Shown here: piece by piece, positions 24,107-62,902 of the stretch
Position numbering within the stretch: the first letter of the stretch is position 1
Layout of the letters: each line of letters opens with the position of its first letter
DNA from: Azolla caroliniana
Taxonomy: Eukaryota; Plantae; Polypodiophyta
Length of the DNA: 64,000 nucleotides
NCBI GenBank assembly: GCA_043228905.1
Contig: JBHGNT010000013.1
Coordinates: 13,578,001 to 13,642,000 of the forward strand
Direction: 5' to 3'
The notes under the pieces: model-generated
Database searches by the model: none
What the model was told of the DNA's origin: nothing
What the model saw: only the letters and a program-made list of their open reading frames with translations
Position numbers and translations under genes: made by a program

Positions 24107-24141
<35 letters not shown>

Positions 24142-24226
24142 CTCCAAGAGGTGATTGACCTCTTCAAAATGGCCTCCCACTGGCAAACAAGGATGTGCAA
24201 GATGAGTTATAAGAAAGCGGGAGTTT

Positions 24227-27375: not shown

Positions 27376-27666
27376 TGTCATGATATAGCAAGACTCGAAC
27401 CCATGACCTTATGCTACATGGGTCGAGCTCTTGATCATTAGACTATACATTGTAATACGTAAAATATTATTTTCTTTTATGTTTTATTATAGAAAATTGA
27501 TGTATATTCCAGATTTCTCTGGAACATTCTAGAAACTTCAGGAGTATTCCTTAGAACACTATAAAAGGAGGGACAAGGCATTATTTCGAACCAAATCGGT
27601 TCAACGCCAGTCTTAAGCCTCCTAGCTACTACTGTACATTCTCTTCACATAATATATATCTTTTCT

Positions 27667-27711
<45 letters not shown>

Positions 27712-30700
27712 CCTCTCACTCACTCTTTCCTTCTCTCGAGAGTTCTTCACCTCTCTTAGTACTAATACTTCTTTCAGTACTAATTCCTTCTCTGTCTTAG
27801 TACTGTTCCTGATAGTTTGAACCGATTTCCGGTCGATCTTCCTTTCCTCCTCTTCCTTTCCTCCTTTTCCTTTTATCTTCTTATTAATCCTCTTATCCCC
27901 CCTAGTAAAATGGAAATTGTTAGCGCTCAGGAATACCAATTTGTTTTCTCGGAGCTCCAGTGCTTAAAAGAGAAATTTGTAGCACTAGAACAAGAAAATC
28001 ATCGCTTGTTGGGGGATCTTCAACAAATAGCGTTGGAAAAACAACAACAACACGGGGAGCTGACACTACGTGTACAACAACTCGAAGCGACTATCATATC
28101 ATTACAACAACAAGGATCAAGCACTCAAGGGATTCACAAAGAACCCAAGATCGGTCTTCCTGCAAAATTTGATGGGACCCGATCACAGTTTAGAGGGTTT
28201 TTGAATCAGGTACGTTTAGTGATACAAATGCATCCTTCTCGATATCCCACTGATGCATCACGAGTGGGACTAGTAGGCACTCTCCTTAGTGGCTCAACGT
28301 TAGCATGGTTTGCTCCATTGTTGGAAAAGGATTCTCCATTATTAAACAGTTTTGAAGAATTTATAAGTGAGTTTAAGGCCTGTTTTGGAGATACTGACAG
28401 CATAAGGACTGCAATCAACAAAATCCGGTGATTACGCCAAGGTGATCGTCCAGCATCCGCATACGCTGCAGATTTCCGCCTACTCGCTGCCGATATCCCT
28501 TGGGATGATCACTCATTGATGGAGCAATTCCGTTATGGCTTACGCAACGATGTCAAGGATTTACTCAAGGATTTACTCTTGACCTTCCCCGAAGAGCCAC
28601 AGTCATTAGCAGAAGCAATTAGTCGCGCGGTGAGATGCGACAACCGCCTCTTCGAACGACATTCAGAACGACAATTCCAGATTCCAAGGGCAAGATCAGA
28701 GCCTACCTATGCCTCAGTGGTAGCGAAACCTTTTCCGAGGGAGTCATATAATGCGCCTCTAGCAAGTACTCCAACTCCGATGGAAATTGACACCACACGT
28801 CGTCGTGGACCGCTATCGGAAGAAGAAAAGCAATGACGCTGAGCAAACTGACTATGTCTTTATTGCGGTGGACCAGGGCATATCACGGTAAACTGTCCCC
28901 ATAGGCCAAGAAGGCAGGTAAACCAAATAGTTGCTAGTTCTGATTGTACTAAACCCGAGTCTATTTCAGTACGGATATCTGATAGTCCTAATAGTACTAA
29001 TTGCCCAAATCTAGCAAACAAATTTGATGTCCTTAGTCAGTTCGAAGAAGAGTTAAACAACTAAGTCCAGCCAAAATAGGAGCCATTTGGTTGGACAGCC
29101 CTAGATCTGTGCAGCCCATTAGTGGTTCCATTCCCTCTAAGCAAGTTAGCAATGTGTTCGTAGCCCAAGTAACAGTTAGTACTAAAAGTACTCCTCCAGT
29201 ACATGTCTTAGCACTTCTAGATTCCGGAGCTAATTCTTGCTTCATGGATAGGAAATTTGCCCAAGCTCATCAGATATCTCTCAGAAAACTCTCATGTCCT
29301 GCCCTTGTAGTAGTCATCAATGGTCATCCCATTGCCTCAGGAAATATCATAGAAGAGTCAGAGCCCGTTAATATTGTCCTAGATAATATAGCATGTGTCA
29401 TATCATTTAATATAATTAGCATCCCAGAACACCCCATTGTCTTAGGATTACCATGGTTCGAATTACATAACCCAGACATAGATTGGCGGACAAGAGAAAT
29501 CTGGCATCAAAAAGCCCGAGGGTCTACTCATGAGATTGCAACGATTTCACTACATCAGTTGCGTGAGGAAGGATGCAAGGAAGAAATGTTCCTCTTCGCA
29601 ATATCAGTAAACCCCTCCAGCACCACTAAAGAGGATTCCACTGTTCAACTTCTAGAGAAGTATCATCAGTATGCCGATGTGTTTGATAAAGTACAAGCCA
29701 GTACGCTGTCACGTTGTTACACGCGTGCGTGGAGAAAGGCGGGACCACGGGGGTCTTGGACTAGGGAGTGACGGAGCGTAGGAAGTCGTGCTTCACCGTT
29801 TCCGGGGCATCCCAGAAGCACACCGGAAGTGACCGAAGGGAGAGAGAGAAAGAGAGGGACCGCGCGCCTAACACCGACTCACGCACACACACGCACACAC
29901 ACACACATGCCGACCCGACTCACGCCCTTATATATAGGAAACGCAAGAAAGGGGAAGCACTCGACACCAACATAGATGCGAATATACACAGACAGACGCA
30001 AATGTATATATATATAAGGAAGAATACATTCCCGGCTTCAAGCTGGTCCGAGGTAGGTTACAGTAGTCGTCAGCTGCCAAGCCGCCGGTCGGGGAGCTCA
30101 CGGGCTTGTCGCGCCGAGCGGGGTCTTGCGCAGGAGACGAGTTGAAGCAAACCCTAAGCGAACATGAAGGGGGAAGAAGAAGAAGAAGAAGTAATGTCAC
30201 TAACCCTAAATCTAACGGTATACCCTCTAACGCAAAATGGGCAACCCTTTCACAAAGGGCGCTCCCTTCCTTTTATAGAACAAGGAGAGGGATGCGTTAC
30301 AATGTGGGATAAATCCCGACTTACATGGGATTGTCTGTCCCGACTTGACTACTCTTCGGCGCCATAAAGGCGCCCTCGTTATTCACACTAAATGTACATG
30401 GGTGAGCACACACGCTGCACCCCGCCGATGTAGCCAATGTTTCCCGGTTTCCGCCTTTGGCCGAAATTCTTCACGACAACGCTTCCTCACCATCGACCAT
30501 ATGATTGCCCCATCGATTTACAACCGGGGAAAGAGCCACCTTGGGGACCGATCTACAATTTGTCACCAACCGAACTGGAAGTCCTTCGAGCCTATATAGA
30601 GGAGAATTTGGAGAATGGTTTCATACGACATTCGAAATCTCCAGCCAGCGCACCCATTTTCTTCGTCAAGAAAAAGGATGGCTCACTTCGGCTCGTTGTA

Positions 30701-33700
30701 GATTACCGTGGCTTGAATAAGGTTACAATCCGAAATAGGTATGCACTTCCCCTTATCTCAAGTCTTTTAGAACGGATCAATGGTGCTAGGTTCTTCACGA
30801 AGATCGACTTACGGGGGGGAGCCTATAACCTCGTACGGATCCGACCAGGAGATTAATGGAAGACCGCGTTCCGCACCAGATATGGGCACTTCGAGTATAC
30901 GGTCATGCCGTTCGGCCTCACTAATGCGCCAGCAGTCTTCCAACACATGGCAAATGATATTTTCCGAGATCTCTTGGATGTGTGTCTAATCATCTATTTG
31001 GATGATCTACTGGTTTACTCGAAGACCCAAGAAGAGCATGATTCTCATGTACTGTTAGTACTAAAACGACTTCGAGAACATGGTCTCTATGCAAAGCTGG
31101 AAAAATGTAGTTTCGGGTGCAACCAGGTGGAATTTCTCGGCTATGTCATTTCCTCAGAAGGCATCTCCATGGACCCAGCTAAGGTCAAAACGGTGGTAGA
31201 ATGGCAGACTCCGCGTTCGGTGCGGGATATGCAATGCTTTCTAGGCTTTGCCAATTTTTACCGGAAGTTTATAAAGGATCACTCAAAGCTCGTTTTGCCT
31301 CTTACACAACTTACTAGGAAGGGACAATCATTCGTTTGGTCTGAAGAAGCGGACATGGCTTTTGAGAATCTTAAACAGGCATTTACATCGGCTTTGATTC
31401 TAGCTCACGTTGATCGAGAAAAACCATTCATCATCGAAGCGAACGCATCGGATTTTGCATTGGGAAGCATTCTATCACAACGAGGTAATGATGAAAAGCT
31501 ACATCCTGTGGCTTTTCACTCACGCAAGTTTGACGCCGCCAAAATCAACTACGAAATTCATGATAAAGAGCTATTGGCTATAGTGGACTCTTTTATGCAA
31601 TGGAGGCATTTCCTAGAGGGATCTTCTCATCAAGTCACTGTATTCAGTGACCACAAAAACCTCGCCTATTTTCAAGACGCTCGTGTGTTAAATCGACGTC
31701 AAGCTCGGTGGGCCCACTTTCTCACGCGTTTCGACTTCAAGATTACATATCGACTTGGGAAACATCAAGGGAAAGCAGATGCATTATCACGACGTTCATA
31801 CCTAGCACCACGTCTCGGCGAGCCAGCTTTCGATAACCAAAAGCAAGTAATCTTGGGACCGGCACGACTGCAAGCAACACAGGTCTTCTGCATGCCCATG
31901 GATTCCCACATTATCGATATCATACGTGCGGACCTGAAGACAGATGCTTTCGCCCAAGCTATACTAGCACAAATTGATCCCTCTCGAGCGTCGTGTTCAC
32001 AGTCGCAACCACCAGGTACGGACTATCGGCAATTTAAATACCATGATGGATTACTCTTCTTTAAATAACTTTTGTATGTTCCTAATGGTTCTTGCCACTT
32101 GCAAGTAGTACAAAACTGTCATGACACATATACAGCTGGGCATTTTGGTAGTACTAAAACGTTACATTTAGTACAACGATCATTCTGGTGGCCCTGTATG
32201 CGACAATTTATCGAGGATTTTGTTCAGACGTGTGATACATGCTGCAGAGCGAAAATGCCAAGGCATCATCCATATGGTTTATTACAACCATTACCACTTC
32301 CAAGCAAGCCGTGGCAATCCATTGCTCTAGACTTCATCACAGATCTTCCAGTCTCTAAAGGGTTCAATGCGATTCTAACGATGGTTGATCGATATACGAA
32401 GATGGCTCATTTTTTGCCATGCACTAAGGAAATCTCCAGTGAAGACACCCGAAATTGTCATGCGTGAAGTATGTCGGCATCATGGACTTCCTGATAGTAT
32501 CGTCAGCGACCGTGGACCCCAGTTCGTGTCAAAATTCTGGAAGCACCTTTTTAAAATGCTCAAGGTCACTTGTAACCTCTCCTCCGGCTACCACCCACAA
32601 ACCGACGGCCAAGCCGAACGAACAAATCAAACGTTGGAGCAGTACCTGCGGTGATTTCTTAGCTATCATCAGGATGACTGGGCAGATATTCTCCACTTCG
32701 TCGAATTTGCCTATAATAACTCTATCCACGCATCAACTAAAGTTACGCCATTTTATGCTTATACGGGATGTCACCCCCGGTGGTGTGTACTTGAAACCCC
32801 AAAGGTGTCCACAAATCCTTGCGCGGAGGATCGTTTGGAGCGGTTACGCAAGATACAAGCAGATTTATCTACTCATCTCCAACAAGCTCAAGAAACACAC
32901 AAGGTTTATGCAGATCGTCATCGACTCCCATCTAGTTTTAACATTGGAGATCGGGTATGGCTACTCCGACGACACATCAAGACTACTCGCCCATGCAAGA
33001 AGTTGGATTATCGGCGATTAGGTCCCTTTCGTATTATAGGAAAGGTTAATGATGTCGCTTTTCGTCTTGATCTACCTCCACAACTTCGGATACATCCGAT
33101 GTTTTATAGTTCTCTCCTTGAACCCTATCAAGAGAGCACCATCCCAAGATGTATTACACAGTCTCCACCCCCGATCGAGCTTGAAGATGGACCTGAGTAC
33201 GAGGTTGCCGCCATCCTTGATTCCAAGCTTGTTCGCAACAAGATGTACTATCTAGTCGATTGGCTAGGATATAGTCCCAACGAGCGTACTTGGGAACTGA
33301 TAGAGAATGTCACCAACGCTCGTGCTCTTCTTGAAGACTTCCATTGTTAATATCCAGACAAACCGGGTCCTCAATCCAAAACGACTCGTTACACTCGTCG
33401 TTTTAAAGGGGGGATAGTGTCATGATATGGCAAGACTCGAACCCATGACCTTATGCTACATGGGTCGAGCTCTTGACCATTAGACTATACATTGTAATAC
33501 GTAGAATATTATTTTCTTTTATGTTTTATTATAGAAAATTGATGTATATTCCAGATTTCTCTGGAACATTCTAGAAACTTCAGGAGTATTCCTTAGAACA
33601 CTATAAAAGGAGGGACAAGGCATTATTTCGAACCAAAACGGTTCAACGCCAGTCTTAAGCCTCCTAGCTACTACTATACATTCTCTTCACATAATATATA

Positions 33701-33836
33701 TCTTTTCTTATCATCTCTCTCTCTCTCTCCCTCCCTCCCACTCACTCTTTCCTTCTCTTGAGAGTTCTTCACCTCTCTTAGTACTAATATTGCTTTTAGT
33801 ACTAATTCCTTCTCTGTCTTAGTACTGTTCCTAACA
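27376..33836 (+). mobile_element. Chromoviral Ty3/Gypsy (Tcn1/Tf1-like), older degenerate copy
   Basis: LTRs 27376-27814 and 33418-33836; TSD ACACT. Gag, PR (LDSGA), RT (YLDD), RH, INT and chromodomain, with stops and frameshifts. Confidence 0.93.
29707..30478 (-). mobile_element. Solo LTR inserted in chromovirus pol
   Basis: TGTCACG...CACGACA termini and exact 4-bp TSD ACGC (29703-29706, 30479-30482). Removal restores [13 protein letters not shown]. Confidence 0.85.
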
Positions 33837-34673: not shown

Positions 34674-34750
34674 TGTGGTAAAAATTGAATCACATCCCTT
34701 TTTTGTTATGTGTTTGTGCTTGTTATAAAGAGAATGAGATCCTACTTATT

Positions 34751-34792
<42 letters not shown>

Positions 34793-35705
34793 CATGCTTG
34801 TCCTTGTAGATATATCGTGTGTGTGTCTTCACGCTTCACCAAAAATATTGAATTTATGACACACAATGCACATCAACGTTTCCATGTCCTTTCTTTGCCT
34901 TTATGAGTTTTGGAAGTGAGAAAATAAGGAAATTGTATAGGGTTGTGTTCTCTAATTTAAGATTAATCGACAAGTTTTGTTGAAACACGATTCATTTGGT
35001 ATTCCTTTACTGAAATTAATGGTTTTAGTTGGGTGGAATTTTATGTCGTTGTCGTTTTCTTTTTCTTTTTCTTTTTTCCAAAAATTGTTGTAAGTTTTTT
35101 TTTTTCCCCAAAAAAAATGTTGTCAGTTCTTTTTTTTGTCCCCAAAAAAAATGTTGTCCGTTCTTTTAATTTTCCAAAAAAAATGTTGGCAGTTCTCTTA
35201 TGCATCTCACCTATTTCAATAAACCAATAAAAGAATATTACTCTTCAGTCCTAAAGTTTTCACTTCCCCATTATGATCGTAAACTTATACAATAAACACA
35301 TATATTGGTCTCTTTTACTGAAATTAATAGTTTTAATCGGGTGGAATTTTATGTCATTGTTGTTTTCTTTTCTCTCTCTCCACTTTCTTCTTTTTCGCTC
35401 TTCCTTTTTTTAAAGTTCCCCTCTCACTAGTTCTATACCTCCCTTACTCTCCCCTTTTAATTCCCATTTCTTCCTCTATTGTTTGTTACCTTTTCACCCC
35501 CTTAGATTTTTCTAAACACCCACTATTACCCCTTCACATTAAACCTTCTCCCCCTCATTATATTTCCCCTTATTATAGAGTCTTCTCTTCTCTCTTTCCC
35601 CATTTCCAATCATACCCATTACCACACCTCCACTCCCCACTCCTTATTCTCATTTTTCTAAAGCCTCTCCTAAACTTCACTATATAAACACCATCAACCC
35701 CCAAA

Positions 35706-35759
35706 GGCCACTTAATGCTAATGAGCCCCGTAGGGGGCGAAACTAGTTTGCTTGTGGCC
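35706..35759 (+). ncRNA. Hammerhead ribozyme, probably inactive (G5A), in the duplicated Penelope-like fragment (~35410-35931 + 41714-41870)
   Basis: GGCCAC-uu-AAUG CUAAUGA GCCCC-guag-GGGGC GAAAC UA GUU UGCU-u-GUGGCC. Confidence 0.65.
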
Positions 35760-36221
35760 ATTCGCATTTCCCCTATCTCATTGTAAACCCTATCCTAATG
35801 AAGATTAGTTTTGTTTAATCTCTCTCTCTTTCTCAAGGTCATGGGTATGTTTTAATCTTATTTAGTGTTTTATTGGTATGTAGAGTTTAATTTTTAGTAT
35901 TTTGATCCCTTATCTCCCTCTCCCCTCCCTCTGTCATAACTAGACTCGAACCCATAACCTTTTGTTACACGGGTCGAGACTTTACCATTAGGTTATGAAT
36001 TGTAATTTGAAGGATATTATTTTCATTTAGGTTTTATTGGGAAATTGATGTATATTCCAGATTTCTCTGGAACATTCTAGAAACTTCAGGAGTATTCCTG
36101 AAGACACTATAAAAGGAGGCGCAAGGCATTAGTTCGAACCAAATCGGTTCAACGCCAGTCTTAAGCCTTCTAACTACTGTTGTATATCTTCCTTCATATA
36201 ATACATATATCTTTCGCATCA

Positions 36222-36267
<46 letters not shown>

Positions 36268-36503
36268 ACTCATTCCTTCTCTCAAAAGTTCGACACCTCT
36301 CATAGTACTAATCCTTCTCTGTCTTAGTACTATTCCCCAACAATAGTACTAATCCTTCTTTTAGTACTAATTCCTTCTCTGCCTTAATAGAGTTCCTGAC
36401 AGTTTGAACCGATTTTTTGGGTGCCTGTCTGGTCTTTTCTCTCCCTCTTCCTTCTGTCTCCCTCCTTTCCTGCTAGTCTCTTATTTCCCTTTTCCTTCAT
36501 CCC

Positions 36504-37673
36504 ATGGCCACCGTTAGCGCTGAAGAGTATCAATCCGTTTTCTCGGAATTTCAATGCTTGAAAGAGAAGTTTCATGCTTTGGAACAAGAAAATCAACGCT
36601 TGTTGGGGGATCTTCAGCAAATTTCCTTAGAAAAGCAGCAAACGCAACAACAGCATGGGGAACTTGCGTTACGCGTGCAACAACTCGAAGCAACCATCGT
36701 AGCAATGCAACAACAAGGGCACGGAGCACAAGGGATTCATAAAGAACCCAAGATTGGCCTTCCCACGAAGTTCGATGGAACGCGATCGCAGTTTAGAGGG
36801 TTTCTTAACCAGGTACGGTTAGTTATTCAAATGCATCCGTCCCGATATCCCACCGATGCATCACGAGTGGGTTTAGTAGGCACGTTGTTAAATGGCTCAG
36901 CATTAGCATGGTTCGCTCCGCTACTAGAAAAGGAATCTCCAGTACTAAATAATTTTGAAGAATTCATAAGTGAGTTTAAAGCATGTTTTGGAGATACTGA
37001 CAGCATAAGGACTGCAATCAACAAAATCCGGCGATTACGCCAAGGTGACCGTCCAGCCTCCGCATATGCTGCAGATTTCCGCCTACTCGCCGCCGATATC
37101 CCCTGGGATGATCAAGCATTGATGGAGCAGTTCCGCTATGGTCTACGCAACGATGTCAAGGATTTACTCTTGACTTTCCCTGAAGAGCCAAAATCATTAA
37201 CAGAAGCAATCAGTCGAGCGGTAAGATGTGACAACCGCCTCTTCGAGCGACGTTCGGAACGACAATTTCAGATGCCGAGGGCAAGATCCGAGCCTACCTA
37301 TGCCTTAGTGGTAGCAAAACCTTTTCAAAGGGAGTCACATAATGCGCCTCCAGTAAGTACTCCAACTCCAATGGAAATTGACACTACACGTCGTCGTGGG
37401 CCGCTATCGGAGGAGGAAAAGCAACGACGCCGAACAAACCGATTATGCCTTTATTGCGGTGGACCAGGGCATATCGCGATAAACTGTCCCCATAGACCAA
37501 GAAGGCAGGTAAACCAAGTCGTTGTTAGTTCTGACTATACTAAACCCGAGTCTATTTCAGTAGGAATCTCTGATAGTCCTCATAGTCATAATAGTCCTAA
37601 TAGTACTAATAGTCCGAATCTCGCAAACAAATTTGATGTCCTTAGCCAATTAGAAGAAGAGTTAAACGACTAA
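36504..37673 (+). CDS. gag: Gag (coiled coil, capsid, zinc knuckle)
   Basis: PTKFDGTRSQFRGF, LRQGDRPASAYAADF, PTPMEID, CLYCGGPGHIAINC. Confidence 0.93.
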   Translation: MATVSAEEYQSVFSEFQCLKEKFHALEQENQRLLGDLQQISLEKQQTQQQHGELALRVQQLEATIVAMQQQGHGAQGIHKEPKIGLPTKFDGTRSQFRGFLNQVRLVIQMHPSRYPTDASRVGLVGTLLNGSALAWFAPLLEKESPVLNNFEEFISEFKACFGDTDSIRTAINKIRRLRQGDRPASAYAADFRLLAADIPWDDQALMEQFRYGLRNDVKDLLLTFPEEPKSLTEAISRAVRCDNRLFERRSERQFQMPRARSEPTYALVVAKPFQRESHNAPPVSTPTPMEIDTTRRRGPLSEEEKQRRRTNRLCLYCGGPGHIAINCPHRPRRQVNQVVVSSDYTKPESISVGISDSPHSHNSPNSTNSPNLANKFDVLSQLEEELND

Positions 37674-40600
37674 GTCCAGCCAAAATAGGAGCCGTTTGGT
37701 TGGACAGCCCTAGATCTGTGCAGCCCATTAGTGGTTCCATTCCCTCTAAGCAAGTTAGTGATGTGTTCGTAGCCCAAGTAGCAGTTAGTACTAAAAGTAC
37801 CCCTCCAGTACATACCTTAGCCCTTCTAGATTCCGGAGCTAATTCTTGCTTCATGGATAGGAATTTTGCCCGAGCTCATCAGATATCTCTCAGAAAGCTC
37901 CCATGTCCAGCCTCAGTAGTAGTCATTGATGGTCGTCCCATTGCTTCTGGTAATATCATAGAAGAGTCGGAACCCGTTAATATTGTCCTAGATAACTTAA
38001 CATGTGTAGTATCATTTAATATTATTAGTATTCCAGAACATCCCATAGTTTTAGGATTACCATGGTTCGAGTTACATAACCCAGACATAGATTGGAGGAC
38101 AAGGGAAATCCGGTTGCGACAAACCCAAGGATCTACCCAGAAGGTTGCAACCATTTCGCTACATCAGTTGCGTGAGGAAGGGCGCAAGGAGGAAATGTTT
38201 CTCTTCGCAATATCAGTACAACCCTCCAGCACCACCAAAGAGGAGTCCACCGTTCAACTTCCCGAGAAGTATCGTCAGTATGCTGATGTGTTCGATAAAG
38301 TACAAGCCAACACACTTCCTCATCATCGGCCGTACGATTGCGCCATCGACTTACAACCGGGAAAAGAGCCGCCATGGGGGCCGATCTACAATTTGTCACC
38401 AACCGAGCTAGAAGTCCTCCGAGCCTATATAGAGGAGAATTTGGAGAACGGTTTCATTCGGCATTCGAAATCTCCAGCCGGTGCACCCATTTTCTTCGTC
38501 AAGAAAAAAGATGGCTCGCTTCGACTCGTTGTAGATTACCGTGGCTTGAATAAGGTCACAGTAAGAAATAGGTATGCTCTTCCCCTTATCTCAAGTCTTT
38601 TAGAACGGATCAACGGTGCCAGGTTCTTCACGAAGATCGACTTACGAGGAGCCTATAACCTCGTACGGATCCGACCAGGAGATGAATGGAAGACCGCGTT
38701 TCGCACCAGATATGGGCACTTCGAGTATACGGTCATGCCGTTCGGACTCACTAATGTGCCGGCAGTCTTCCAGCACATGGCGAATGATATATTTCGAGAT
38801 CTCTTGGATGATTTTTTGATCATCTATTTGGATGATCTACTGGTTTATTCAAAGACCCAAGAAGAACATGATTCTCATGTACTATTAGTACTAAAACGAC
38901 TTCGAGAACATGGTCTGTATGCAAAGTTAGAGAAATGTAGTTTCGGGTGCAACCAAGTGGAATTTCTCGGCTATGTCATCTCCTCAGAAGGCATATCTAT
39001 GGACCCAGCCAAGGTGAAAACGGTGATAGAATGGCACACTCCGCGTTCGGTGCGGGATGTGCAATGCTTCCTAGGCTTTGCAAATTTTTACCGGAAGTTC
39101 ATACAAAATTACTCAAAAATTGTGCTGCCTCTCACACAGCTCACCAAGAAGGGACAATCATTCATTTGGTCTAAAGAGACGGACATGGCTTTCGAGAGTC
39201 TTAAGAAGGCGTTTACATCAGCTCCAATTTTAGGTCATGTGGATCCGGAAAAACCATTCATTATCGAAGCTGACGCATCGGATTTCGCATTGGGGAGCAT
39301 TCTGTCACAACAGGGTAACGACGAGAAGCTACATCCTGTGGCTTTCCACTCCCGTAAGTTTGACGCCGCCGAAATCAACTACGAAATTCATGATAAAGAG
39401 CTATTAGCAATAGTTGATTCTTTTATGCAATGGAGGCATTTCCTGGAGGGATCTCCTCATCAGGTCACTGTATTCAGTGACCACAAGAACCTTGCCTACT
39501 TTCAAGATGCTCGTGTACTGAATCGACGTCAAGCTCGGTGGGCCCACTTCCTCACACGCTTCGACTTCAAAATTACATATCGTCCGGGGAAGCACCAAGG
39601 GAAGGCAGATGCATTATCACGGCGTTCGTATCTAACACCACGTCCCGGTGAGCCAGCTTTCGATAACCAGAAGCAAGTAATCTTGGGTCCAGCACGACTG
39701 CAAGCAGCACAAGTCTTTGACATGCCCGTGGATTCCGACATTACCAATACTATACGTGAGGACTTGAAGACTGACGCTTTCGCCCAAGCTATACTAGCAC
39801 AAATTGACCCCTCTCGAGCGTCATGTTCACAATCACAATCACCAGGTACGGATTATCGGCAATTCAAATACTGTGATGGATTACTCTTCTTTAAAGAACT
39901 TTTGTATGTTCCTAATGGTTCTTGCCGCCTTCGAGTAGTACAAAATTGCCATGACACATATACAGCAGGACATTTTGGTAGTACTAAAACATTAGATTTA
40001 GTACAACGATCATTCTGCTGGCCCCGTATGCGACAATTTGTCGAAGATTTTGTTCGGACTTGCGATACATGCTGCAGAGCGAAAATGCCAAGACATCATC
40101 CATATGGTTTATTAGAACCATTACCAATTCCAAGCAAGCCATGGCAATCCATTGCTCTTGACTTCATTACAGATCTTCCAGTCTCTAAGGGATTCAGTGC
40201 GATTCTCACAGTGGTGGATCGATATACGAAGATGCCTCATTTCTTACCATGTACTAAAGAAATATCTAGTGAAGACACCGCCGAAATTGTCATGCGGGAA
40301 GTATGTCGGCATCATGGACTCCCTGATAATATCATCAGCGATCGTGGACCCCAGTTTGTGTCAAAATTCTGGAAGCACCTTTTTAAAATGCTGAAGGTCA
40401 CTTGTAACCTCTCCTCCGGCTACCACCCACAAACCGACGGTCAAGCCGAACGAACAAATCAAACACTGGAGCAGTATCTGCGGTGCTTTCTCAACTATCA
40501 TCAGAATGACTGGGCAGATATTCTTCAGTTCGCCGAATTTGCCTATAATAACACTATCCACGCATCGACTAAAGTCACGCCATTCTACGCTTATACGGGA

Positions 40601-41257
40601 TATCATCCCCGGTGGTGTGTCCTTGAAACCCCAGAAGTGTCCACAAATCCTTGCGCGGAGGATCGTTTGGAGCGGTTACGCAAGATACAAGCGGATTTAT
40701 CTACTCAACTCCAGCAAGCTCAACAATCACACAAGGACTACGCAGATCGTCATCGACTTCCATCCAGTTTTAACATTGGAGATCGGGTGTGGCTGCTACG
40801 ACGACACATCAAGACTACTCGCCCATGTGAGAAGTTGGATTATCGGCGATTAGGTCCTTTCCGTATTATCGGGAAGATTAATGATGTCGCTTTTCGTCTC
40901 GAGCTACCTCCGCAACTTCGGATACATCCGGTGTTTCATAGTTCTCTCCTCGAACCCTATCACGAGAGCACTATCCCAAGACGTACTATACAACCACCAC
41001 CTCCTATCGAGCTCGAAGATGGACCTGAGTATGAGGTCGCTGCCATCCTCGATTCCAAGATTGTTCGCAACAAGCTCTACTATCTAGTCGATTGGCTAGG
41101 ATATAGTCCCAGCGAGCGTACTTGGGAACCGATCGAGAATGTGACCAATGCTCGTGCTCTTCTAGAAGACTTCCATCGACGATATCCCGAGAAACCGGGT
41201 CCTCAATCCAAAACGACTCGTGGAACTCGTCGTTTTAAAGGGGGGATAGTGTCATAA
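37646..41257 (+). CDS. pol: Pol (PR-RT-RNase H-INT-chromodomain), in the -1 frame relative to gag
   Basis: LLDSGA, YLDD, EADASD, HHCC, GPF, YEVAAILDSK...YYLVDWLGY. The frame is open from 37646 and overlaps the gag end; the stop lies inside the 3' LTR. Confidence 0.93.
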   Translation, partial: PIRRRVKRLSPAKIGAVWLDSPRSVQPISGSIPSKQVSDVFVAQVAVSTKSTPPVHTLALLDSGANSCFMDRNFARAHQISLRKLPCPASVVVIDGRPIASGNIIEESEPVNIVLDNLTCVVSFNIISIPEHPIVLGLPWFELHNPDIDWRTREIRLRQTQGSTQKVATISLHQLREEGRKEEMFLFAISVQPSSTTKEESTVQLPEKYRQYADVFDKVQANTLPHHRPYDCAIDLQPGKEPPWGPIYNLSPTELEVLRAYIEENLENGFIRHSKSPAGAPIFFVKKKDGSLRLVVDYRGLNKVTVRNRYALPLISSLLERINGARFFTKIDLRGAYNLVRIRPGDEWKTAFRTRYGHFEYTVMPFGLTNVPAVFQHMANDIFRDLLDDFLIIYLDDLLVYSKTQEEHDSHVLLVLKRLREHGLYAKLEKCSFGCNQVEFLGYVISSEGISMDPAKVKTVIEWHTPRSVRDVQCFLGFANFYRKFIQNYSKIVLPLTQLTKKGQSFIWSKETDMAFESLKKAFTSAPILGHVDPEKPFIIEADASDFALGSILSQQGNDEKLHPVAFHSRKFDAAEINYEIHDKELLAIVDSFMQWRHFLEGSPHQVTVFSDHKNLAYFQDARVLNRRQARWAHFLTRFDFKITYRPGKHQGKADALSRRSYLTPRPGEPAFDNQKQVILGPARLQAAQVFDMPVDSDITNTIREDLKTDAFAQAILAQIDPSRASCSQSQSPGTDYRQFKYCDGLLFFKELLYVPNGSCRLRVVQNCHDTYTAGHFGSTKTLDLVQRSFCWPRMRQFVEDFVRTCDTCCRAKMPRHHPYGLLEPLPIPSKPWQSIALDFITDLPVSKGFSAILTVVDRYTKMPHFLPCTKEISSEDTAEIVMREVCRHHGLPDNIISDRGPQFVSKFWKHLFKMLKVTCNLSSGYHPQTDGQAERTNQTLEQYLRCFLNYHQNDWADILQFAEFAYNNTIHASTKVTPFYAYTGYHPRWCVLETPEVSTNPCAEDRLERLRKIQADLSTQLQQAQQSHKDYADRHRLPSSFNIGDRVWLLRRHIKTTRPCEKLDYRRLGPFRIIGKINDVAFRLELPPQLRIHPVFHSSLLEPYHESTIPRRTIQPPPPIELEDGPEYEVAAILDSKIVRNKLYYLVDWLGYSPSERTWEPIENVTNARALLEDFHRRYPEKPGPQSKTTRGTRRFKGGIVS

Positions 41258-41539
41258 CTAGACTCGAACCCATAACCTTTTGTTACACGGGTCGAGACTT
41301 TACCATTAGGTTATGAATTGTAATTTGAAGGATATTATTTTCATTTAGGTTTTATTGGGAAATTGATGTATATTCCAGATTTCTCTGGAACATTCTAGAA
41401 ACTTCAGGAGTATTCCTGAAGACACTATAAAAGGAGGCGCAAGGCATTAGTTCGAACCAAATCGGTTCAACGCCAGTCTTAAGCCTTCTAACTACTGTTG
41501 TATATCTTCCTTCATATAATACATATATCTTTCGCATCA

Positions 41540-41579
<40 letters not shown>

Positions 41580-42070
41580 ACTCATTCCTTCTCTCAAAAG
41601 TTCGACACCTCTCATAGTACTAATCCTTCTCTGTCTTAGTACTATTCCCCAACAATAGTACTAATCCTTCTTTTAGTACTAATTCCTTCTCTGCCTTAAT
41701 AGAGTTCCTGACACCCTCTATCTCTTCTAATCGTCGCCTACACCAAGCTTTGTTTACGATTCGGGTGCGCTCAAATCGATCTTGGTGGTCTCGTCTCCCT
41801 CTCAACTTATCTACAACCCACCGATGATTTCCCCGTTCCGCACTCCTTGTACCGGCCGTAAGGCCAACATAAATAAATGTTGTCGGTTCTCTTATGCACC
41901 TCTCCTTTTTCAATAAAACAATAAAAGAATATTACTCTTAAATCCTAAAGTCTTCACTTCCCCATTATGATCGTAAACTTATACAATAAACACACATACG
42001 CACACACACATACATCCGGAACCACATATAGGTAAACGTGTACACATATGTAACAATATATTATACATAC

Positions 42071-42106
<36 letters not shown>

Positions 42107-43396: not shown

Positions 43397-48715
<5,319 letters not shown>

Positions 48716-56572: not shown

Positions 56573-57416
56573 TGTCACGGAGACACTTCACCAAAGGGTG
56601 ATTACGGCATAGGATTATGACTCAACGATTACACCGACTTAAGTAGGTTACACGATTAGAGCGCTTTTGTTAATTACACGCGTAAGATATAACAGTAATT
56701 ACAGAACGGAAATCAACACAGAAGTATAAACACCATACGCTCTATTAATTATCCGCTGCGATTACAATGGGGTCCGGGCCTTTAAATAGGTTTCCGGCCC
56801 GTAGTACAAAACGGTGCCTATCGCACCTATTCGGGATCCGTCCGGATCTCGAACGGCATACCGTTTCCAGTCCGTCCGTCCACACTATGCTCATTTACAA
56901 CCATACTTAATTCATTCCTTCACTCCGTATTTTGGACTCCTTGCCGACCGGTAACACATGGCACGCCCGTGGGACAGTACCTTATACGTCGAACCCTTCT
57001 CGGCCCCTTCATTGTTCACCCAAATTGTCCAAAATACTTTGTTCCAGAGTTTCCAATTGTTCTTCCGGTTGTGGTTGTTGCGGCTGTGCTTGCTGCTGCT
57101 GCTGTGGTTGCGGTTGGGACAGAGACTGTCATAACTAGACTCGAACCCATAACCTTTTGTTACACGGGTCGAGACTTTACCATTAGGTTATAAATTGTAA
57201 TTTGAAGGATATTATTTTCATTTAGGTTTTATTGGGAAATTGATGTATATTCCAGATTTCTCTGGAACATTCTAGAAACTTCAGGAGTATTCCTGAAGAC
57301 ACTATAAAAGGAGGCGCAAGGCATTAGTTCGAACCAAATCGGTTCAACGCCAGTCTTAAGCCTTCTAACTACTGTTGTATATCTTCCTTCATATAATACA
57401 TATACCTTTCGCATCA

Positions 57417-57458
<42 letters not shown>

Positions 57459-57692
57459 ACCCATTCCTTCTCTCAAAGTTCGACACCTCTCATAGTACTA
57501 ATCCTTCTCTGTCTTAGTACTATTCCCCGACAATAGTACTAATCCTTCTTTTAGTACTAATTCCTTCTCTGCCTTAATAGAGTTCCTGACAGTTTGAACC
57601 GATTTCTCGGTGCCTGTCTGGTCTTTTCTCTCCCTCTTCCTTCTGTCTCCCTCCTTTCCTATTAGTCTCTTATTTTCCTTTTCCTTCATCCC

Positions 57693-58859
57693 ATGGCCAC
57701 CGTTAGCGCTGAAGAGTATCAATCCGTTTTCTCGGAATTTCAATGCTTGAAAGAGAAGTTTCATGCTTTGGAACAAGAAAATCAACGCTTGTTGGGGGAT
57801 CTTCAGCAAATTTCCTTAGAAAAGCAGCAAACGCAACAACAGCATGGGGAACTTGCGTTACGCGTGCAACAACTCGAAGCAACCATCGTAGCAATGCAAC
57901 AACAAGGGCACGGAGCACAAGGGATTCATAAAGAACCCAAGATTGGCCTTCCCACGAAGTTTGATGGAACGCGATCGCAGTTTAGAGGGTTTCTTAACCA
58001 GGTACGGTTAGTTATTCAAATGCATCCGTCCCGATATCCCACCGATGCATCACGAGTGGGTTTAGTAGGCACGTTGTTAAATGGCTCAGCATTAGCATGG
58101 TTCGCTCCGCTACTAGAAAAGGAATCTCCAGTACTAAATAATTTTGAAGAATTCATAAATGAGTTTAAAGCATGTTTTGGAGATACTGACAGCATAAGGA
58201 CTGCAATCAACAAAATCCGGCGATTACGCCAAGGTGACCGTCCAGCCTCCGCATATGCTGCAGATTTCCGCCTACTCGCCGCCGATATCCCCTGGGATGA
58301 TCAAGCATTGATGGAGCAATTCCGCTATGGTCTACGCAACGATGTCAAGGATTTACTCTTGACTTTCCCTGAAGAGCCAAAATCATTAACAGAAGCAATC
58401 AGTCGAGCGGTCAGATGTGACAACCGCCTCTTCGAGCGACGTTCGGAACGACAATTTCAGATGCCGAGGGCAAGATCCGAGCCTACCTATGCCTCAGTGG
58501 TAGCAAAACCTTTTCAAAGGGAGTCACATAATGCGCCTCCAGTAAGTACTCCAACTCCAATGGAAATTGACACTACACGTCGTCGTGGGCCGCTATCGGA
58601 GGAGGAAAAGCAACGACGCCGAACAAACCGATTATGCCTTTATTGCGGTGGACCAGGGCATATCGCGATAAACTGTCCCCATAGACCAAGAAGGCAGGTA
58701 AACCAAGTCGTTGTTAGTTCTGACTATACTAAACCCGAGTCTATTTCAGTAGGAATCTCTGATAGTCCTCATAGTCATAGTCCTAATAGTACTAATAGTC
58801 CGAATCTCGCAAACAAATTTGATGTCCTTAGCCAATTAGAAGAAGAGTTAAACGACTAA
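57693..58859 (+). CDS. gag: Gag
   Basis: Near-identical to 36504-37673. Confidence 0.93.
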   Translation: MATVSAEEYQSVFSEFQCLKEKFHALEQENQRLLGDLQQISLEKQQTQQQHGELALRVQQLEATIVAMQQQGHGAQGIHKEPKIGLPTKFDGTRSQFRGFLNQVRLVIQMHPSRYPTDASRVGLVGTLLNGSALAWFAPLLEKESPVLNNFEEFINEFKACFGDTDSIRTAINKIRRLRQGDRPASAYAADFRLLAADIPWDDQALMEQFRYGLRNDVKDLLLTFPEEPKSLTEAISRAVRCDNRLFERRSERQFQMPRARSEPTYASVVAKPFQRESHNAPPVSTPTPMEIDTTRRRGPLSEEEKQRRRTNRLCLYCGGPGHIAINCPHRPRRQVNQVVVSSDYTKPESISVGISDSPHSHSPNSTNSPNLANKFDVLSQLEEELND

Positions 58860-61800
58860 GTCCAGCCAAAATAGGAGCCGTTTGGTTGGACAGCCCTAGA
58901 TCTGTGCAGCCCATTAGTGGTTCCATTCCCTCTAAGCAAGTTAGTGATGTGTTCGTAGCCCAAGTAGCAGTTAGTACTAAAAGTACCCCTCCAGTACATA
59001 CCTTAGCCCTTCTAGATTCCGGAGCTAATTCTTGCTTCATGGATAGGAATTTTGCCCGAGCTCATCAGATATCTCTCAGAAAGCTCCCATGTCCAGCCTC
59101 AGTAGTAGTCATTGATGGTCGTCCCATTGCTTCTGGTAATATCATAGAAGAGTCGGAACCCGTTAATATTGTCCTAGATAACTTAACATGTGTAGTATCA
59201 TTTAATATTATTAGTATTCCAGAACATCCCATAGTTTTAGGATTACCATGGTTCGAGTTACATAACCCAGACATAGATTGGAGGACAAGGGAAATCCGGT
59301 TGCGACAAACCCAAGGATCTACCCAGAAGGTTGCAACCATTTCGCTACGTCAGTTGCGTGAGGAAGGGCGCAAGGAGGAAATGTTTCTCTTCGCAATATC
59401 AGTACAACCCTCCAGTACCACCAAAGAGGAGTCCACCGTTCAACTTCCCGAGAAGTATCGTCAGTATGCTGATGTGTTCGATAAAGTACAAGCCAACACA
59501 CTTCCTCATCATCGGCCGTACGATTGCGCCATCGACTTACAACCGGGAAAAGAGCCGCCATGGGGGCCGATCTACAATTTGTCACCAACCGAGCTAGAAG
59601 TCCTTCGAGCCTATATAGAGGAGAATTTGGAGAACGGTTTCATTCGGCATTCGAAATCTCCAGCCGGCGCACCCATTTTCTTCGTCAAGAAAAAAGATGG
59701 CTCGCTTCGACTCGTTGTAGATTACCGTGGCTTGAATAAGGTCACAGTAAGAAATAGGTATGCTCTTCCCCTTATCTCAAGTCTTTTAGAACGGATCAAC
59801 GGTGCCAGGTTCTTCACGAAGATCGACTTACGAGGAGCCTATAACCTCGTACGGATCCGACCAGGAGATGAATGGAAGACCGCGTTTCGCACCAGATATG
59901 GGCACTTCGAGTATACGGTCATGCCGTTCGGACTCACTAATGCGCCGGCAGTCTTCCAGCACATGGCGAATGATATATTTCGAGATCTTTTGGATGATTT
60001 TTTGATCATCTATTTGGATGATCTACTGGTTTATTCAAAGACCCAAGAAGAACATGATTCTCATGTACTATTAGTACTAAAACGACTTCGAGAACATGGT
60101 CTGTATGCAAAGTTAGAGAAATGTAGTTTCGGGTGCAACCAAGTGGAGTTTCTCGGCTATGTCATCTCCTCAGAAGGCATATCTATGGACCCAGCCAAGG
60201 TGAAAACGGTGATAGAATGGCACACTCCGCGTTCGGTGCGGGATGTGCAATGCTTCCTAGGCTTTGCAAATTTTTACCGGAAGTTCATACAAAATTACTC
60301 AAAAATTGTGCTGCCTCTCACACAGCTCACCAGGAAGGGACAATCATTCCTTTGGTCTAAAGAGACGGACATGGCTTTCGAGAGTCTTAAGAAGGCGTTT
60401 ACATCAGCTCCAATTTTAGGTCATGTGGATCCGGAAAAACCATTCATTATCGAAGCTGACGCATCGGATTTCGCATTGGGGAGCATTCTGTCACAACAGG
60501 GTAACGACGAGAAGCTACATCCTGTGGCTTTCCACTCCCGTAAGTTTGACGCCGCCGAAATCAACTACGAAATTCATGATAAAGAGCTATTAGCAATAGT
60601 TGATTCTTTTATGCAATGGAGGCATTTCCTGGAGGGATCTCCTCATCAGGTCACTGTATTCAGTGACCACAAGAACCTTGCCTACTTTCAAGATGCTCGT
60701 GTACTGAATCGACGTCAAGCTCGGTGGGCCCACTTCCTCACACGCTTCGACTTCAAAATTACATATCATCCGGGGAAGCACCAAGGGAAGGCAGATGCAT
60801 TATCACGGCGTTCGTATCTAACACCAGGTCCTGGTGAGCCAGCTTTCGATAACCAGAAGCAAGTAATCTTGGGTCCAGCACGACTGCAAGCAGCACAGGT
60901 CTTTGACATGCCCGTGGATTCCGACATTACCAATACTATACGTGAGGACTTGAAGACTGACGCTTTCGCCCAAGCTATACTAGCACAAATTGACCCCTCT
61001 CGAGCGTCATGTTCACAATCACAATCACCAGGTACGGATTATCGGCAATTCAAATACTGTGATGGATTACTCTTCTTTAAAGAACTTTTGTATGTTCCTA
61101 ATGGTTCTTGCCGCCTTCGAGTAGTACAAAACTGCCATGACACATATACAGCAGGACATTTTGGTAGTACTAAAACATTAGATTTAGTACAACGATCATT
61201 CTGGTGGCCCCGTATGCGACAATTTGTCGAAGATTTTGTTCGGACTTGCGATACATGCTGCAGAGCGAAAATGCCAAGACATCATCCATATGGTTTATTA
61301 GAACCATTACCAATTCCAAGCAAGCCATGGCAATCCATTGCTCTTGACTTCATTACAGATCTTCCAGTCTCCAAGGGATTCAGTGCGATTCTCACAGTGG
61401 TGGATCGATATACAAAGATGGCTCATTTCTTACCATGTACTAAAGAAATATCTAGTGAAGACACCGCCGAAATTGTCATGCGGGAAGTATGTCGGCATCA
61501 TGGACTCCCTAATAATATCATCAGCGATCGTGGACCTCAGTTTGTGTCAAAATTCTGGAAGCACCTTTTTAAAATGCTGAAGGTCACTTGTCACCTCTCC
61601 TCCGGCTACCACCCACAAACCGATGGTCAAGCTGAACGAACAAATCAAACACTGGAGCAGTATCTGCGGTGCTTTCTCAACTATCATCAGAATGATTGGG
61701 CAGATATTCTTCAGTTCGCCGAATTTGCCTATAATAACGCTATCCACGCATCGACTAAAGTCACGCCATTCTACGCTTATACAGGATATCATCCCCGGTG

Positions 61801-62443
61801 GTGTGTCCTTGAAACCCCAGAAGTGTCCACAAATCCTTGCGCGGAGGATCGTTTGGAGCGGTTACGCAAGATACAAGCGGATTTATCTACTCAACTCCAG
61901 CAAGCTCAACAATCACACAAGGACTACGCAGATCGTCATCGACTTCCATCCAGTTTTAACATTGGAGATCGGGTGTGGCTGCTACGACGACACATCAAGA
62001 CTACTCGCCCATGTGAGAAGTTGGATTATCGGCGATTAGGTCCTTTCCGTATTATCGGGAAGATTAATGATGTCGCTTTTCGTCTCGAGCTACCTCCGCA
62101 ACTTCGGATACATCCGGTGTTTCATAGTTCTCTCCTCGAACCCTATCACGAGAGCACTATCCCAGGACGTACTATACAACCACCACCTCCTATCGAGCTC
62201 GAAGATGGACCTGAGTATGAGGTCGCTGCCATCCTCGATTCCAAGATTGTTCGCAACAAGCTCTACTATCTAGTCGATTGGCTAGGATATAGTCCCAGCG
62301 AGCGTACTTGGGAACCGATCGAGAATGTGACCAATGCTCGTGCTCTTCTAGAAGACTTCCATCAACGATATCCCGAGAAACCGGGTCCTCAATCCAAAAC
62401 GACTCGTGGAACTCGTCGTTTTAAAGGGGGGATAGTGTCATAA
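58832..62443 (+). CDS. pol: Pol (PR-RT-RNase H-INT-chromodomain), -1 frame
   Basis: Near-identical to 37646-41257, with canonical TNAPA, SFWWP and KMAHF. Confidence 0.93.
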   Translation, partial: PIRRRVKRLSPAKIGAVWLDSPRSVQPISGSIPSKQVSDVFVAQVAVSTKSTPPVHTLALLDSGANSCFMDRNFARAHQISLRKLPCPASVVVIDGRPIASGNIIEESEPVNIVLDNLTCVVSFNIISIPEHPIVLGLPWFELHNPDIDWRTREIRLRQTQGSTQKVATISLRQLREEGRKEEMFLFAISVQPSSTTKEESTVQLPEKYRQYADVFDKVQANTLPHHRPYDCAIDLQPGKEPPWGPIYNLSPTELEVLRAYIEENLENGFIRHSKSPAGAPIFFVKKKDGSLRLVVDYRGLNKVTVRNRYALPLISSLLERINGARFFTKIDLRGAYNLVRIRPGDEWKTAFRTRYGHFEYTVMPFGLTNAPAVFQHMANDIFRDLLDDFLIIYLDDLLVYSKTQEEHDSHVLLVLKRLREHGLYAKLEKCSFGCNQVEFLGYVISSEGISMDPAKVKTVIEWHTPRSVRDVQCFLGFANFYRKFIQNYSKIVLPLTQLTRKGQSFLWSKETDMAFESLKKAFTSAPILGHVDPEKPFIIEADASDFALGSILSQQGNDEKLHPVAFHSRKFDAAEINYEIHDKELLAIVDSFMQWRHFLEGSPHQVTVFSDHKNLAYFQDARVLNRRQARWAHFLTRFDFKITYHPGKHQGKADALSRRSYLTPGPGEPAFDNQKQVILGPARLQAAQVFDMPVDSDITNTIREDLKTDAFAQAILAQIDPSRASCSQSQSPGTDYRQFKYCDGLLFFKELLYVPNGSCRLRVVQNCHDTYTAGHFGSTKTLDLVQRSFWWPRMRQFVEDFVRTCDTCCRAKMPRHHPYGLLEPLPIPSKPWQSIALDFITDLPVSKGFSAILTVVDRYTKMAHFLPCTKEISSEDTAEIVMREVCRHHGLPNNIISDRGPQFVSKFWKHLFKMLKVTCHLSSGYHPQTDGQAERTNQTLEQYLRCFLNYHQNDWADILQFAEFAYNNAIHASTKVTPFYAYTGYHPRWCVLETPEVSTNPCAEDRLERLRKIQADLSTQLQQAQQSHKDYADRHRLPSSFNIGDRVWLLRRHIKTTRPCEKLDYRRLGPFRIIGKINDVAFRLELPPQLRIHPVFHSSLLEPYHESTIPGRTIQPPPPIELEDGPEYEVAAILDSKIVRNKLYYLVDWLGYSPSERTWEPIENVTNARALLEDFHQRYPEKPGPQSKTTRGTRRFKGGIVS

Positions 62444-62725
62444 CTAGACTCGAACCCATAACCTTTTGTTACACGGGTCGAGACTTTACCATTAGGTTAT
62501 AAATTGTAATTTGAAGGATATTATTTTCATTTAGGTTTTATTGGGAAATTGATGTATATTCCAGATTTCTCTGGAACATTCTAGAAACTTCAGGAGTATT
62601 CCTGAAGACACTATAAAAGGAGGCGCAAGGCATTAGTTCGAACCAAATCGGTTCAACGCCAGTCTTAAGCCTTCTAACTACTGTTGTATATCTTCCTTCA
62701 TATAATACATATACCTTTCGCATCA

Positions 62726-62769
<44 letters not shown>

Positions 62770-62902
62770 ACCCATTCCTTCTCTCAAAGTTCGACACCTC
62801 TCATAGTACTAATCCTTCTCTGTCTTAGTACTATTCCCCGACAATAGTACTAATCCTTCTTTTAGTACTAATTCCTTCTCTGCCTTAATAGAGTTCCTGA
62901 CA

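What the first reader, a model, noticed from the sequence alone, without database searches (positions are those of the whole stretch)
36108..36415. tRNA-independent, Tf1-like self-priming in a plant chromovirus
Seen: no TGG-type tRNA PBS follows the 5' LTR. Instead GTTTGAACCGATTT (36402-36415) contains a perfect 12-nt complement of AAATCGGTTCAA (36141-36152), which lies ~27 nt downstream of TATAAAA (36108), at the expected transcription start. The same pair is in copy B (57336-57347 / 57592-57605) and the older copy (27593-27604 / 27815-27828). Known: S. pombe Tf1 primes reverse transcription with its own cleaved 5' 11 nt. Inference: this family uses that mechanism, consistent with a fungal-like Tcn1/Tf1 affinity.
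Basis: partly seen in the sequence, partly recalled or inferred. Interest (0 to 1): 0.75.

Follow-up and report, generated by a model that had tools for sequence, protein, structure and literature searches.

The report
Self-priming Tcn1 retrotransposon in a fern
A high-copy jumping gene, likely from a fern, has no tRNA-binding site; the 12 bases after its left repeat pair perfectly with the likely first 12 bases of its own RNA and change in step with them across relatives, so it likely primes its own copying as yeast Tf1 does, a trick already predicted for this group in mosses and spikemosses.

Summary
Observation confirmed. Three window copies of a 5.8-kb chromovirus carry LTR end + GT + TTGAACCGATTT, the exact complement of an LTR 12-mer 33 nt after the TATA start. 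Both sides change together in relatives (four variants; 72 of 74 copies concordant at the main variable site). A tRNA-Met-primed family in the same genome shows no such complement (0 of 8). RT groups with fungal and vertebrate elements (100/99). The host is likely a fern. Self-priming is very likely, but Neumann 2019 already predicted it for 83% of 1,500 plant Tcn1 elements, and this scan noted self-priming in other lineages before. Additions here: a fern host; integrated inverted copies in which the primer runs straight into a reverse copy of U5-R that often stops at the primer's edge (11 of 29 mapped events); copy-specific bases right after the PBS (18 of 20 close pairs in family A, only 2 of 14 in family B); and a U3/R hairpin predicted to mask the 3' primer copy. 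Start site and cleavage were not measured; Tf1's full three-duplex structure was not found.

The parts
35932..41713 (+). Copy A, full-length Ty3/gypsy chromovirus (5,782 bp), TSD CCCTC
   Evidence: LTRs differ by 0 substitutions and 6 gap columns
35932..36401 (+). 5' LTR of copy A (TGTCA...TGACA, 470 bp)
36108..36114 (+). TATA box (TATAAAA), first T 33 nt before the self-primer; same spacing (-32/-33) in all variants resolved
   Evidence: function inferred
36132..36153 (+). U3/R hairpin (GAACC-AAATC-GGTTC core); predicted to form only in the 3' LTR of the RNA and to mask that copy of the primer
   Evidence: weak in this family (5-9 primer bases paired in most variants), 12-bp stem in family B
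36141..36152 (+). Predicted self-primer AAATCGGTTCAA = inferred first 12 nt of the RNA
   Evidence: start not measured
36402..36403 (+). 2-nt spacer GT between LTR end and PBS
   Evidence: GT in 117 of 119 junctions; the search asked for a 2-nt gap
36404..36415 (+). Primer-binding site TTGAACCGATTT, complement of 36141-36152
   Evidence: pair probabilities 0.56-1.0 in the folded leader
36416..36423 (+). Copy-specific bases just after the PBS (likely scar of copying the primer's 5' end)
36504..37673 (+). gag (Retrotrans_gag, Ty3_capsid, zinc knuckle)
37646..41257 (+). pol, overlapping gag in the -1 frame: PR-RT-RNase H-IN-SH3-chromodomain with Y/W/Y aromatic cage residues
41237..41249 (+). Polypurine tract region (AAAGGGGGGATAG)
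41250..41713 (+). 3' LTR of copy A; primer copy at 41459-41470
57127..62902 (+). Copy B, 99% identical to A; LTRs 57127-57591 and 62436-62902; TATA 57303, primer 57336-57347, PBS 57594-57605; TSD GAGAC
27376..33836 (+). Copy C, older and broken; LTRs 27376-27814 and 33418-33836 (12 substitutions); TATA 27560, primer 27593-27604, PBS 27817-27828; TSD ACACT

Best explanation
This is a Tf1/sushi-group (Tcn1-type) chromovirus, likely in a fern genome, whose primer-binding site is the exact complement of an LTR 12-mer that is likely the first 12 bases of its RNA, so it likely primes minus-strand synthesis with its own RNA rather than a tRNA. Shown: the complement, its geometry, its co-change across variants, the RT placement. 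Inferred steps: (1) Pol II starts at A36141; (2) nt 1-12 fold onto the PBS; (3) the element's RNase H cuts after nt 12, as in Tf1, giving a 3'-OH two bases from the LTR end; (4) RT copies spacer-U5-R to nt 13 and jumps to the 3' R; (5) plus-strand synthesis copies the retained primer, so the PBS is rewritten from the RNA's 5' end in each cycle, which would explain both the co-change and the variable bases after the PBS; (6) a U3/R hairpin likely hides the 3' LTR copy of the primer. Rare failures left integrated inverted copies.
For: Complement of 12 nt or more in 12 of 12 A-type elements with resolved ends, 11 nt in 24 of 26 family-B elements (RT about 64% identical, other sequence: AAGGTGAACAA/TTGTTCACCTT), 0 of 8 tRNA-Met-type elements (46 of 63 stretches had resolved ends). 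Variants AAATTGG/CCAATTT and AATTCGG/CCGAATT change on both sides; 72 of 74 A-type junctions concordant at the C/T-G/A site; about 4 changes on an LTR tree with the primer left out. The complement stops at 12 nt in 85 of 99 A-type copies and extends in register with the upstream base in 14, to 17 and 21 nt in L290, L291. Close pairs differ within 8 nt after the PBS in 18 of 20 (A) and 5 of 6 (A2) against 2-4% background. 45 loci carry PBS followed by reversed U3 motif; 29 mapped independent inversions, 11 ending at primer end -1..+7 (expected about 1.3, p 2e-8); 8 events have 5-bp TSDs; one contig in another run shows the same junction at 36152. RT tree: 100/99 branch with Ustilago, Lyophyllum, fish and frog elements, apart from Tanacetum, Closterium and the tRNA-primed family. 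0 of 14 T-arm-like matches are tRNAs.
Against: No 5' end data: no RNA holder listed and only contigs available. Tf1's flanking duplexes: R x U5-end helix predicted in family B (p 0.63-0.76) but not in the MFE of five A-type leaders; no conserved duplex with sequence after the PBS. Post-PBS variability is absent in family B (2 of 14) and equals the tRNA control (2 of 10); its background is lowered by the way pairs were chosen. A genome-wide test for junctions exactly at nt 13 gave 4 hits against 4 for a U3 control site. 18 of 29 inversions end further inside R-U5. The main co-changing site is a CpG on both sides, and starred branches force only one origin. PBS-side sampling was partly by pattern.
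Confidence: 0.88

Rival explanations
1. Self-priming, but not by the Tf1 route: the primer's 3'-OH is made by a host nuclease or comes from a short abortive transcript or small RNA of the element's 5' end, not by the element's RNase H cutting a three-duplex structure.
For: Full pretzel not found in family A; third duplex not conserved. No direct evidence of who cuts. The inverted copies can be read without a cut RNA (see next rival).
Against: Element lies in the fungal/vertebrate group where RNase H cleavage is the described route; RNase H domain intact; inverted segments pile up at nt 13-19, where a cut template would begin.
Confidence: 0.2
2. The inverted copies are DNA fold-backs at a 12-bp inverted repeat (the PBS copy pairing with R 1-12 in plus-strand DNA, or host repair), so their end at nt 13 marks the base of a hairpin stem and says nothing on RNA cleavage. 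This rival concerns the fossils only, not self-priming itself.
For: Seven loci hold a whole or nearly whole LTR before PBS + reversed U3, two of them 616- and 656-bp elements with two U3 ends and TSDs, two at a 3' LTR: these are simple fold-backs of the PBS overhang. The nt-13 junction test was inconclusive.
Against: TSDs and TG..CA ends in 8 events point to formation before integration; no clean inversion between the two repeats was seen among the 45 loci; L215 also has a right end that begins at nt 13 in normal orientation.
Confidence: 0.4
3. A host tRNA fragment is the primer (the primer contains GGTTCAA, like a tRNA T-loop; recalled motif) and the LTR match is secondary.
For: Half-tRNA primers exist in plant copia lineages (PMC6317226). 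Only the T-arm placement for one variant was searched.
Against: 0 of 14 genome matches to the T-arm pattern are tRNAs; four different PBS variants each follow their own LTR, family B has no T-loop motif; a tRNA primer would reset the PBS to the tRNA.
Confidence: 0.04
4. The complement is a leader RNA structure (packaging, dimerisation or translation control) and priming happens otherwise.
For: The U3/R hairpin shows the region has structural roles beyond PBS pairing.
Against: The site sits exactly 2 nt from the LTR end where a primer must bind, no other PBS exists, and inverted copies are extended from exactly the 3' end of the 12-mer.
Confidence: 0.05

Closest known systems
Plant chromovirus clade Tcn1 (REXdb; Neumann et al. 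2019, PMC6317226: passages and supplement 3 read; Novikova et al. 2010, PMC2864245: passages read)
   Same: 5-bp TSD, 5.8 kb (reported range 5,466-9,444), gag overlapping pol in another frame, chromodomain with aromatic cage, no tRNA PBS, predicted self-priming (83% of 1,500 elements), RT closer to fungi than to seed-plant chromoviruses.
   Different: Reported from mosses and club-mosses; PCR of 26 ferns and horsetails found none. Here the host is likely a fern with well over 1,000 matching junctions. The published prediction rested on a blastn complement of 10 nt or more; co-change, TATA spacing and fossil junctions are not in the passages read. Family B (5.29 kb) is slightly under the reported size range.
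Tf1/Tf2 of Schizosaccharomyces pombe, Tj1, Tosmo1-3, Cryptococcus Tcn1 (Tf1/sushi group; PMC7175516, PMC10085805, PMC4600332, PMC11042837, PMC5341516: passages read; Levin's primary papers not held)
   Same: 11-12-nt complement between the RNA 5' end and a PBS beside the LTR; chromovirus; Tf1 cDNA keeps a single-stranded PBS copy at its 3' end and RT adds non-templated bases, which fits the fold-back copies and the variable bases seen here.
   Different: Tf1's mechanism is shown by experiment, this one is not; primer 12 nt in family A (11 in Tf1 and family B); gag and pol in two frames; three-duplex pretzel only partly found; a U3/R masking hairpin is not mentioned in the passages read.
TAR lineage of plant Ty1/copia (Houba, Osr-1; PMC6317226)
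   Same: Predicted self-priming in plants (89% of 203 elements).
   Different: Other superfamily (copia domain order), no chromodomain.

Membership tests
Ty3/gypsy chromovirus | Order PR-RT-RH-IN with C-terminal chromodomain, LTRs TG..CA, TSD | tested here: met
Tf1/sushi group | RT-RH groups with fungal and vertebrate chromoviruses, apart from seed-plant clades | tested here: met
   branch 100/99, 38 rows, midpoint root; reference rows are named database proteins, not Tf1 or sushi themselves; 33 of 120 listed hits were chosen by hand
Tf1/sushi group | PBS complementary to an 11-12-nt LTR segment, no tRNA PBS | tested here: met
Tf1/sushi group | That segment is the 5' end of the RNA | tested here: inconclusive
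   TATA at -32/-33 and complement edge fit; no raw RNA reads
Tf1/sushi group | Three-duplex 'pretzel' leader | tested here: inconclusive
   central duplex in 6 of 7 MFE folds and probability 0.5-1.0 in all 7; R x U5 helix in 2 of 2 family-B, 0 of 5 A-type; post-PBS duplex not conserved
Tf1/sushi group | RNase H cleaves after the primer | not testable with these tools
   indirect only: inversion ends cluster at primer edge; control test inconclusive
Tcn1 clade | 5-bp TSD, 5.5-9.4 kb, overlapping gag/pol frames, chromodomain with aromatic cage | tested here: met
   cage residues Y/W/Y read by eye from the translation (positions recalled)
Tcn1 clade | Clusters with Cryptococcus Tcn1, PpatensLTR2 and SM-Tcn1 | not tested
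   no named Tcn1 reference came from any call; REXdb FASTA too large to read; families A and B sit in an open fork
tRNA-primed plant chromoviruses (Tekay, Reina, CRM, Galadriel) | PBS starting TGG, complementary to a tRNA 3' end | tested here: not met
   met by the control family in the same genome

The most novel reading that the evidence does not exclude
Ferns host large, recently expanded, possibly separately acquired Tf1/sushi lineages, and their genomes preserve the self-priming reaction as a fossil record: integrated mis-jumped strong-stop DNAs that mark the RNA cut site to the base, a PBS edge rewritten from the capped 5' end in each cycle, and a U3-encoded anti-primer hairpin that keeps the 3' LTR copy of the primer from binding the PBS. 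That would give the first positional evidence for RNase H self-priming in a plant and a new control element of the mechanism.
Probability: 0.4. Interest if true: 0.6.

Novelty: new member of a known kind. Interest (0 to 1): 0.4.

Why it matters
Self-priming in plants has been a prediction from a bare sequence complement. Co-change across variants plus integrated fold-back copies raise it to a well-supported inference and give exact positions to test (start 36141, cut after 36152, first DNA base opposite 36403). A fern host widens the Tcn1 range beyond mosses and spikemosses, which bears on the fungus-to-plant transfer idea. Elements without a tRNA primer would be out of reach of host control through tRNA fragments (inference). 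The mechanism itself is known.

Tried and rejected
RNA evidence for the start site: no RNA holder listed; four contig runs laid cannot show a start. Genome-wide test for junctions exactly at nt 13 against a U3 control: 4 vs 4 hits, inconclusive. tRNA T-arm primer: 0 of 14; other tRNA parts and a full tRNA set were not searched. Full pretzel: not found in family A. Post-PBS variability as a general scar: fails in family B. Of 45 inversion-pattern loci, 3 proved to be normal elements with a longer complement or look-alike bases (L284, L290, L291), 7 whole-LTR fold-backs, 1 unmapped (L295), 1 complex (L211), 4 duplicates of other events; these 16 were left out of the count of 29; L286 may start inside U3 (about 84 nt before the primer end) or be eroded by divergence. 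TSDs could not be checked for most A2 loci (3 kb held). 17 of 63 stretches gave no resolved LTR ends. Levin 1995, Lin and Levin 1998 and Esnault and Levin 2015 are not held. Searches for Tcn1 in ferns (listings only, plus passages of PMC8282616 and PMC12924346) and for compensatory evidence of plant self-priming found no report; genome-paper supplements and REXdb additional file 1 were not seen and may list fern Tcn1 elements.

Full report
Observation. The window holds three copies of one LTR element: A 35932-41713, B 57127-62902 and an older, broken C 27376-33836. A and B have TG..CA ends, 5-bp TSDs and LTRs without substitutions, so they are recent. In each copy the 5' LTR is followed by GT and TTGAACCGATTT, the exact complement of AAATCGGTTCAA, which begins 33 nt after the first T of TATAAAA. 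No TGG follows the LTR. Only 3 of 797 internal windows reach a 12-nt complement by chance. The LTR-end+PBS 24-mer occurs 452 times in the 523-Mb genome, and a pattern covering G, A or T at the variable site 1,551 times.

What the element is. gag overlaps pol in the -1 frame; pol has PR, RT, RNase H, integrase, SH3 and a chromodomain with Y/W/Y cage residues. Named RT-RH relatives are 54-58% identical in basidiomycetes, fish and frogs against 44-48% in Tanacetum and Closterium; a 38-row tree separates the element, family B and the fungal and vertebrate rows from the plant rows and from a tRNA-primed family of the same genome with support 100/99. Size, TSD, frame overlap and chromodomain match the REXdb table for Tcn1. 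No named Tcn1 reference was in hand, so membership of Tcn1 proper is likely but untested. The window's polyphenol oxidase has its best named hits in Ceratopteris and Adiantum (45-50%) ahead of seed plants, Selaginella and mosses, so the host is likely a fern; this rests on one gene.

Co-change. I fetched 60 chromovirus loci by SH3 and chromodomain hits; with the three window copies 46 of 63 gave resolved ends. All 12 A-type elements have a complement of 12 nt or more, three of them the variant AAATTGGTTCAA/TTGAACCAATTT. Family B (RT about 64% identical, 353-bp LTR) has AAGGTGAACAA/TTGTTCACCTT in 24 of 26, TATA at -32, the same spacer. Eight elements of a family with a tRNA-Met-type PBS have no complement over 6 nt. 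With the LTR site located by context alone, 72 of 74 A-type junctions agree at the C/T-G/A site, 67 of 74 pair at all 12 positions and 39 of 45 B junctions at all 11. A further variant AATTCGGTTCAA/TTGAACCGAATT stands in two loci. An LTR tree without the primer needs about 4 changes, though starred branches force only one per variant. The main site is a CpG on both sides, so independent decay is possible, but would leave more mismatched copies than 2 of 74. Under self-priming the PBS is recopied from the primer, so co-change need not mean selection.

The PBS edge. The complement ends at 12 nt in 85 of 99 A-type copies; in 14 it extends in register with the base upstream, and to 17 and 21 nt in two normal elements. 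Near-identical copies differ within 8 nt after the PBS in 18 of 20 pairs (A) and 5 of 6 (A2), against 2-4% per 8-nt window further on; family B (2 of 14) and the tRNA control (2 of 10) do not show it. In B the next base is C in 50 of 53, which would fit a copied cap but may simply be inherited. Tf1 RT adds non-templated bases to most cDNA 3' ends (PMC11042837, passages); the A-family scar is likely of that kind (inference).

Fossil intermediates. Patterns for a PBS that runs on into reversed U3 hit 12 (A), 29 (A2) and 4 (B) loci. Read on the other strand these are U3 + primer joined directly to a reverse copy of spacer-U5-R, then a jump to varied internal positions. After removing 3 normal elements, 7 whole-LTR fold-backs, 2 unmappable loci and 4 duplicates, 29 events remain; 11 end within -1 to +7 of the primer's 3' end (about 1.3 expected, p 2e-8), none between -2 and -58, 18 further inside R-U5. 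Eight events have 5-bp TSDs, among them 616- and 656-bp elements with two U3 ends. One contig of depth 3.5 in another run leaves the LTR at 36152 with the same junction. My reading: a minus strong-stop DNA, whose 3' end marks the cut RNA end at nt 13, jumped to a wrong template, and the PBS copy later paired with R 1-12 and copied U3. About half of Tf1 cDNA keeps such a single-stranded PBS copy. The rival is a DNA hairpin fold-back, where nt 13 is only the stem base; the whole-LTR cases are of that kind, and a direct genome-wide test at nt 13 was inconclusive.

RNA structure. In leaders folded from the inferred start, the primer:PBS helix has pair probabilities of 0.5-1.0 in all 7 and is in the MFE of 6. 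Tf1 needs two further duplexes (PMC10085805, passages). One, R with the U5 end, is predicted in family B only; none with sequence after the PBS is conserved. A hairpin spanning U3/R covers the primer: a 12-bp stem in family B whose inner pairs and loop vary together across variants, 5-9 primer bases in most A-type variants, weak in some. Its 5' arm lies too near the TATA box to be in the RNA's 5' end, so it would form only in the 3' LTR and likely masks that primer copy (inference).

tRNA rival. The primer resembles a T-loop (recalled). Fourteen genome matches to a T-arm-compatible pattern hold no tRNA. Other tRNA parts were not searched, but four PBS variants each follow their own LTR.

What is known. 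Tf1 uses its first 11 bases, cut by RNase H between bases 11 and 12 (PMC7175516, passages). Neumann et al. 2019 predicted self-priming for most plant Tcn1 elements, from mosses and club-mosses, and for TAR copia (PMC6317226, passages and supplement 3); 'fern' does not occur in its main text. Novikova et al. 2010 found no Tcn1 in 26 ferns and horsetails by PCR and no priming signal in SM-Tcn1 (PMC2864245, passages). Four searches found no report of Tcn1 in ferns, but supplements of fern genome papers were not seen. Earlier notes of this scan report self-priming in animal Gypsy and protist copia lineages, one with fold-back copies, and one calls this genome a fern; I read them after my analyses and they are not evidence.

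Verdict. It is a new member of a known kind: the mechanism was already predicted for this plant clade. The additions are the likely fern host, co-change, the inverted fossils and the U3/R hairpin. Interest 0.4.

Noticed in passing
window 10806-12671 (-), and pieces at 18257-19518 and 34313-35271: Polyphenol oxidase gene with best named hits in ferns; a second copy (83-91% identical) appears split by a copia element.
   Followed up: partly
window 19518-34312: Copia element (LTRs 19518-19989 and 33857-34312, tRNA-Met-type PBS) that carries copy C inserted about 20 nt before its 3' LTR, beside the polypurine tract.
   Followed up: no
window 45838-56371: Copia element on the minus strand with three LTR-like repeats (45838, 50770, 55587) holding 54-nt tandem repeats; possibly a tandem element sharing a middle LTR.
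   Followed up: no
window 15095-17418 versus 35264-35935 and 41714-43370: Segmental duplicate (94-96%) that shows the empty site of copy A.
   Followed up: no
L181, L220, L221 (G000 C2:12.26 Mb; C12:18.91 Mb): One inverted element nested in another copy at the same position (TSD ATGTT) occurs three times, twice in tandem; the C2 region also holds several LTRs at about 3.2-kb spacing.
   Followed up: partly
L032-L037, L151-L180: tRNA-Met-primed chromovirus family with a single 1,479-aa frame and 242 matching junctions; PBS is preceded by a 1-nt spacer.
   Followed up: partly
window 36296-36375: Repeated TAGTACTA palindromes in U5 form stable hairpins in all A-type leaders folded; role unknown.
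   Followed up: no
P0036: An unnamed relative (75% RT identity) carries a dUTPase domain in pol.
   Followed up: no
window 6815-8333: Array of about 50-54-nt degenerate repeats of unknown origin.
   Followed up: no
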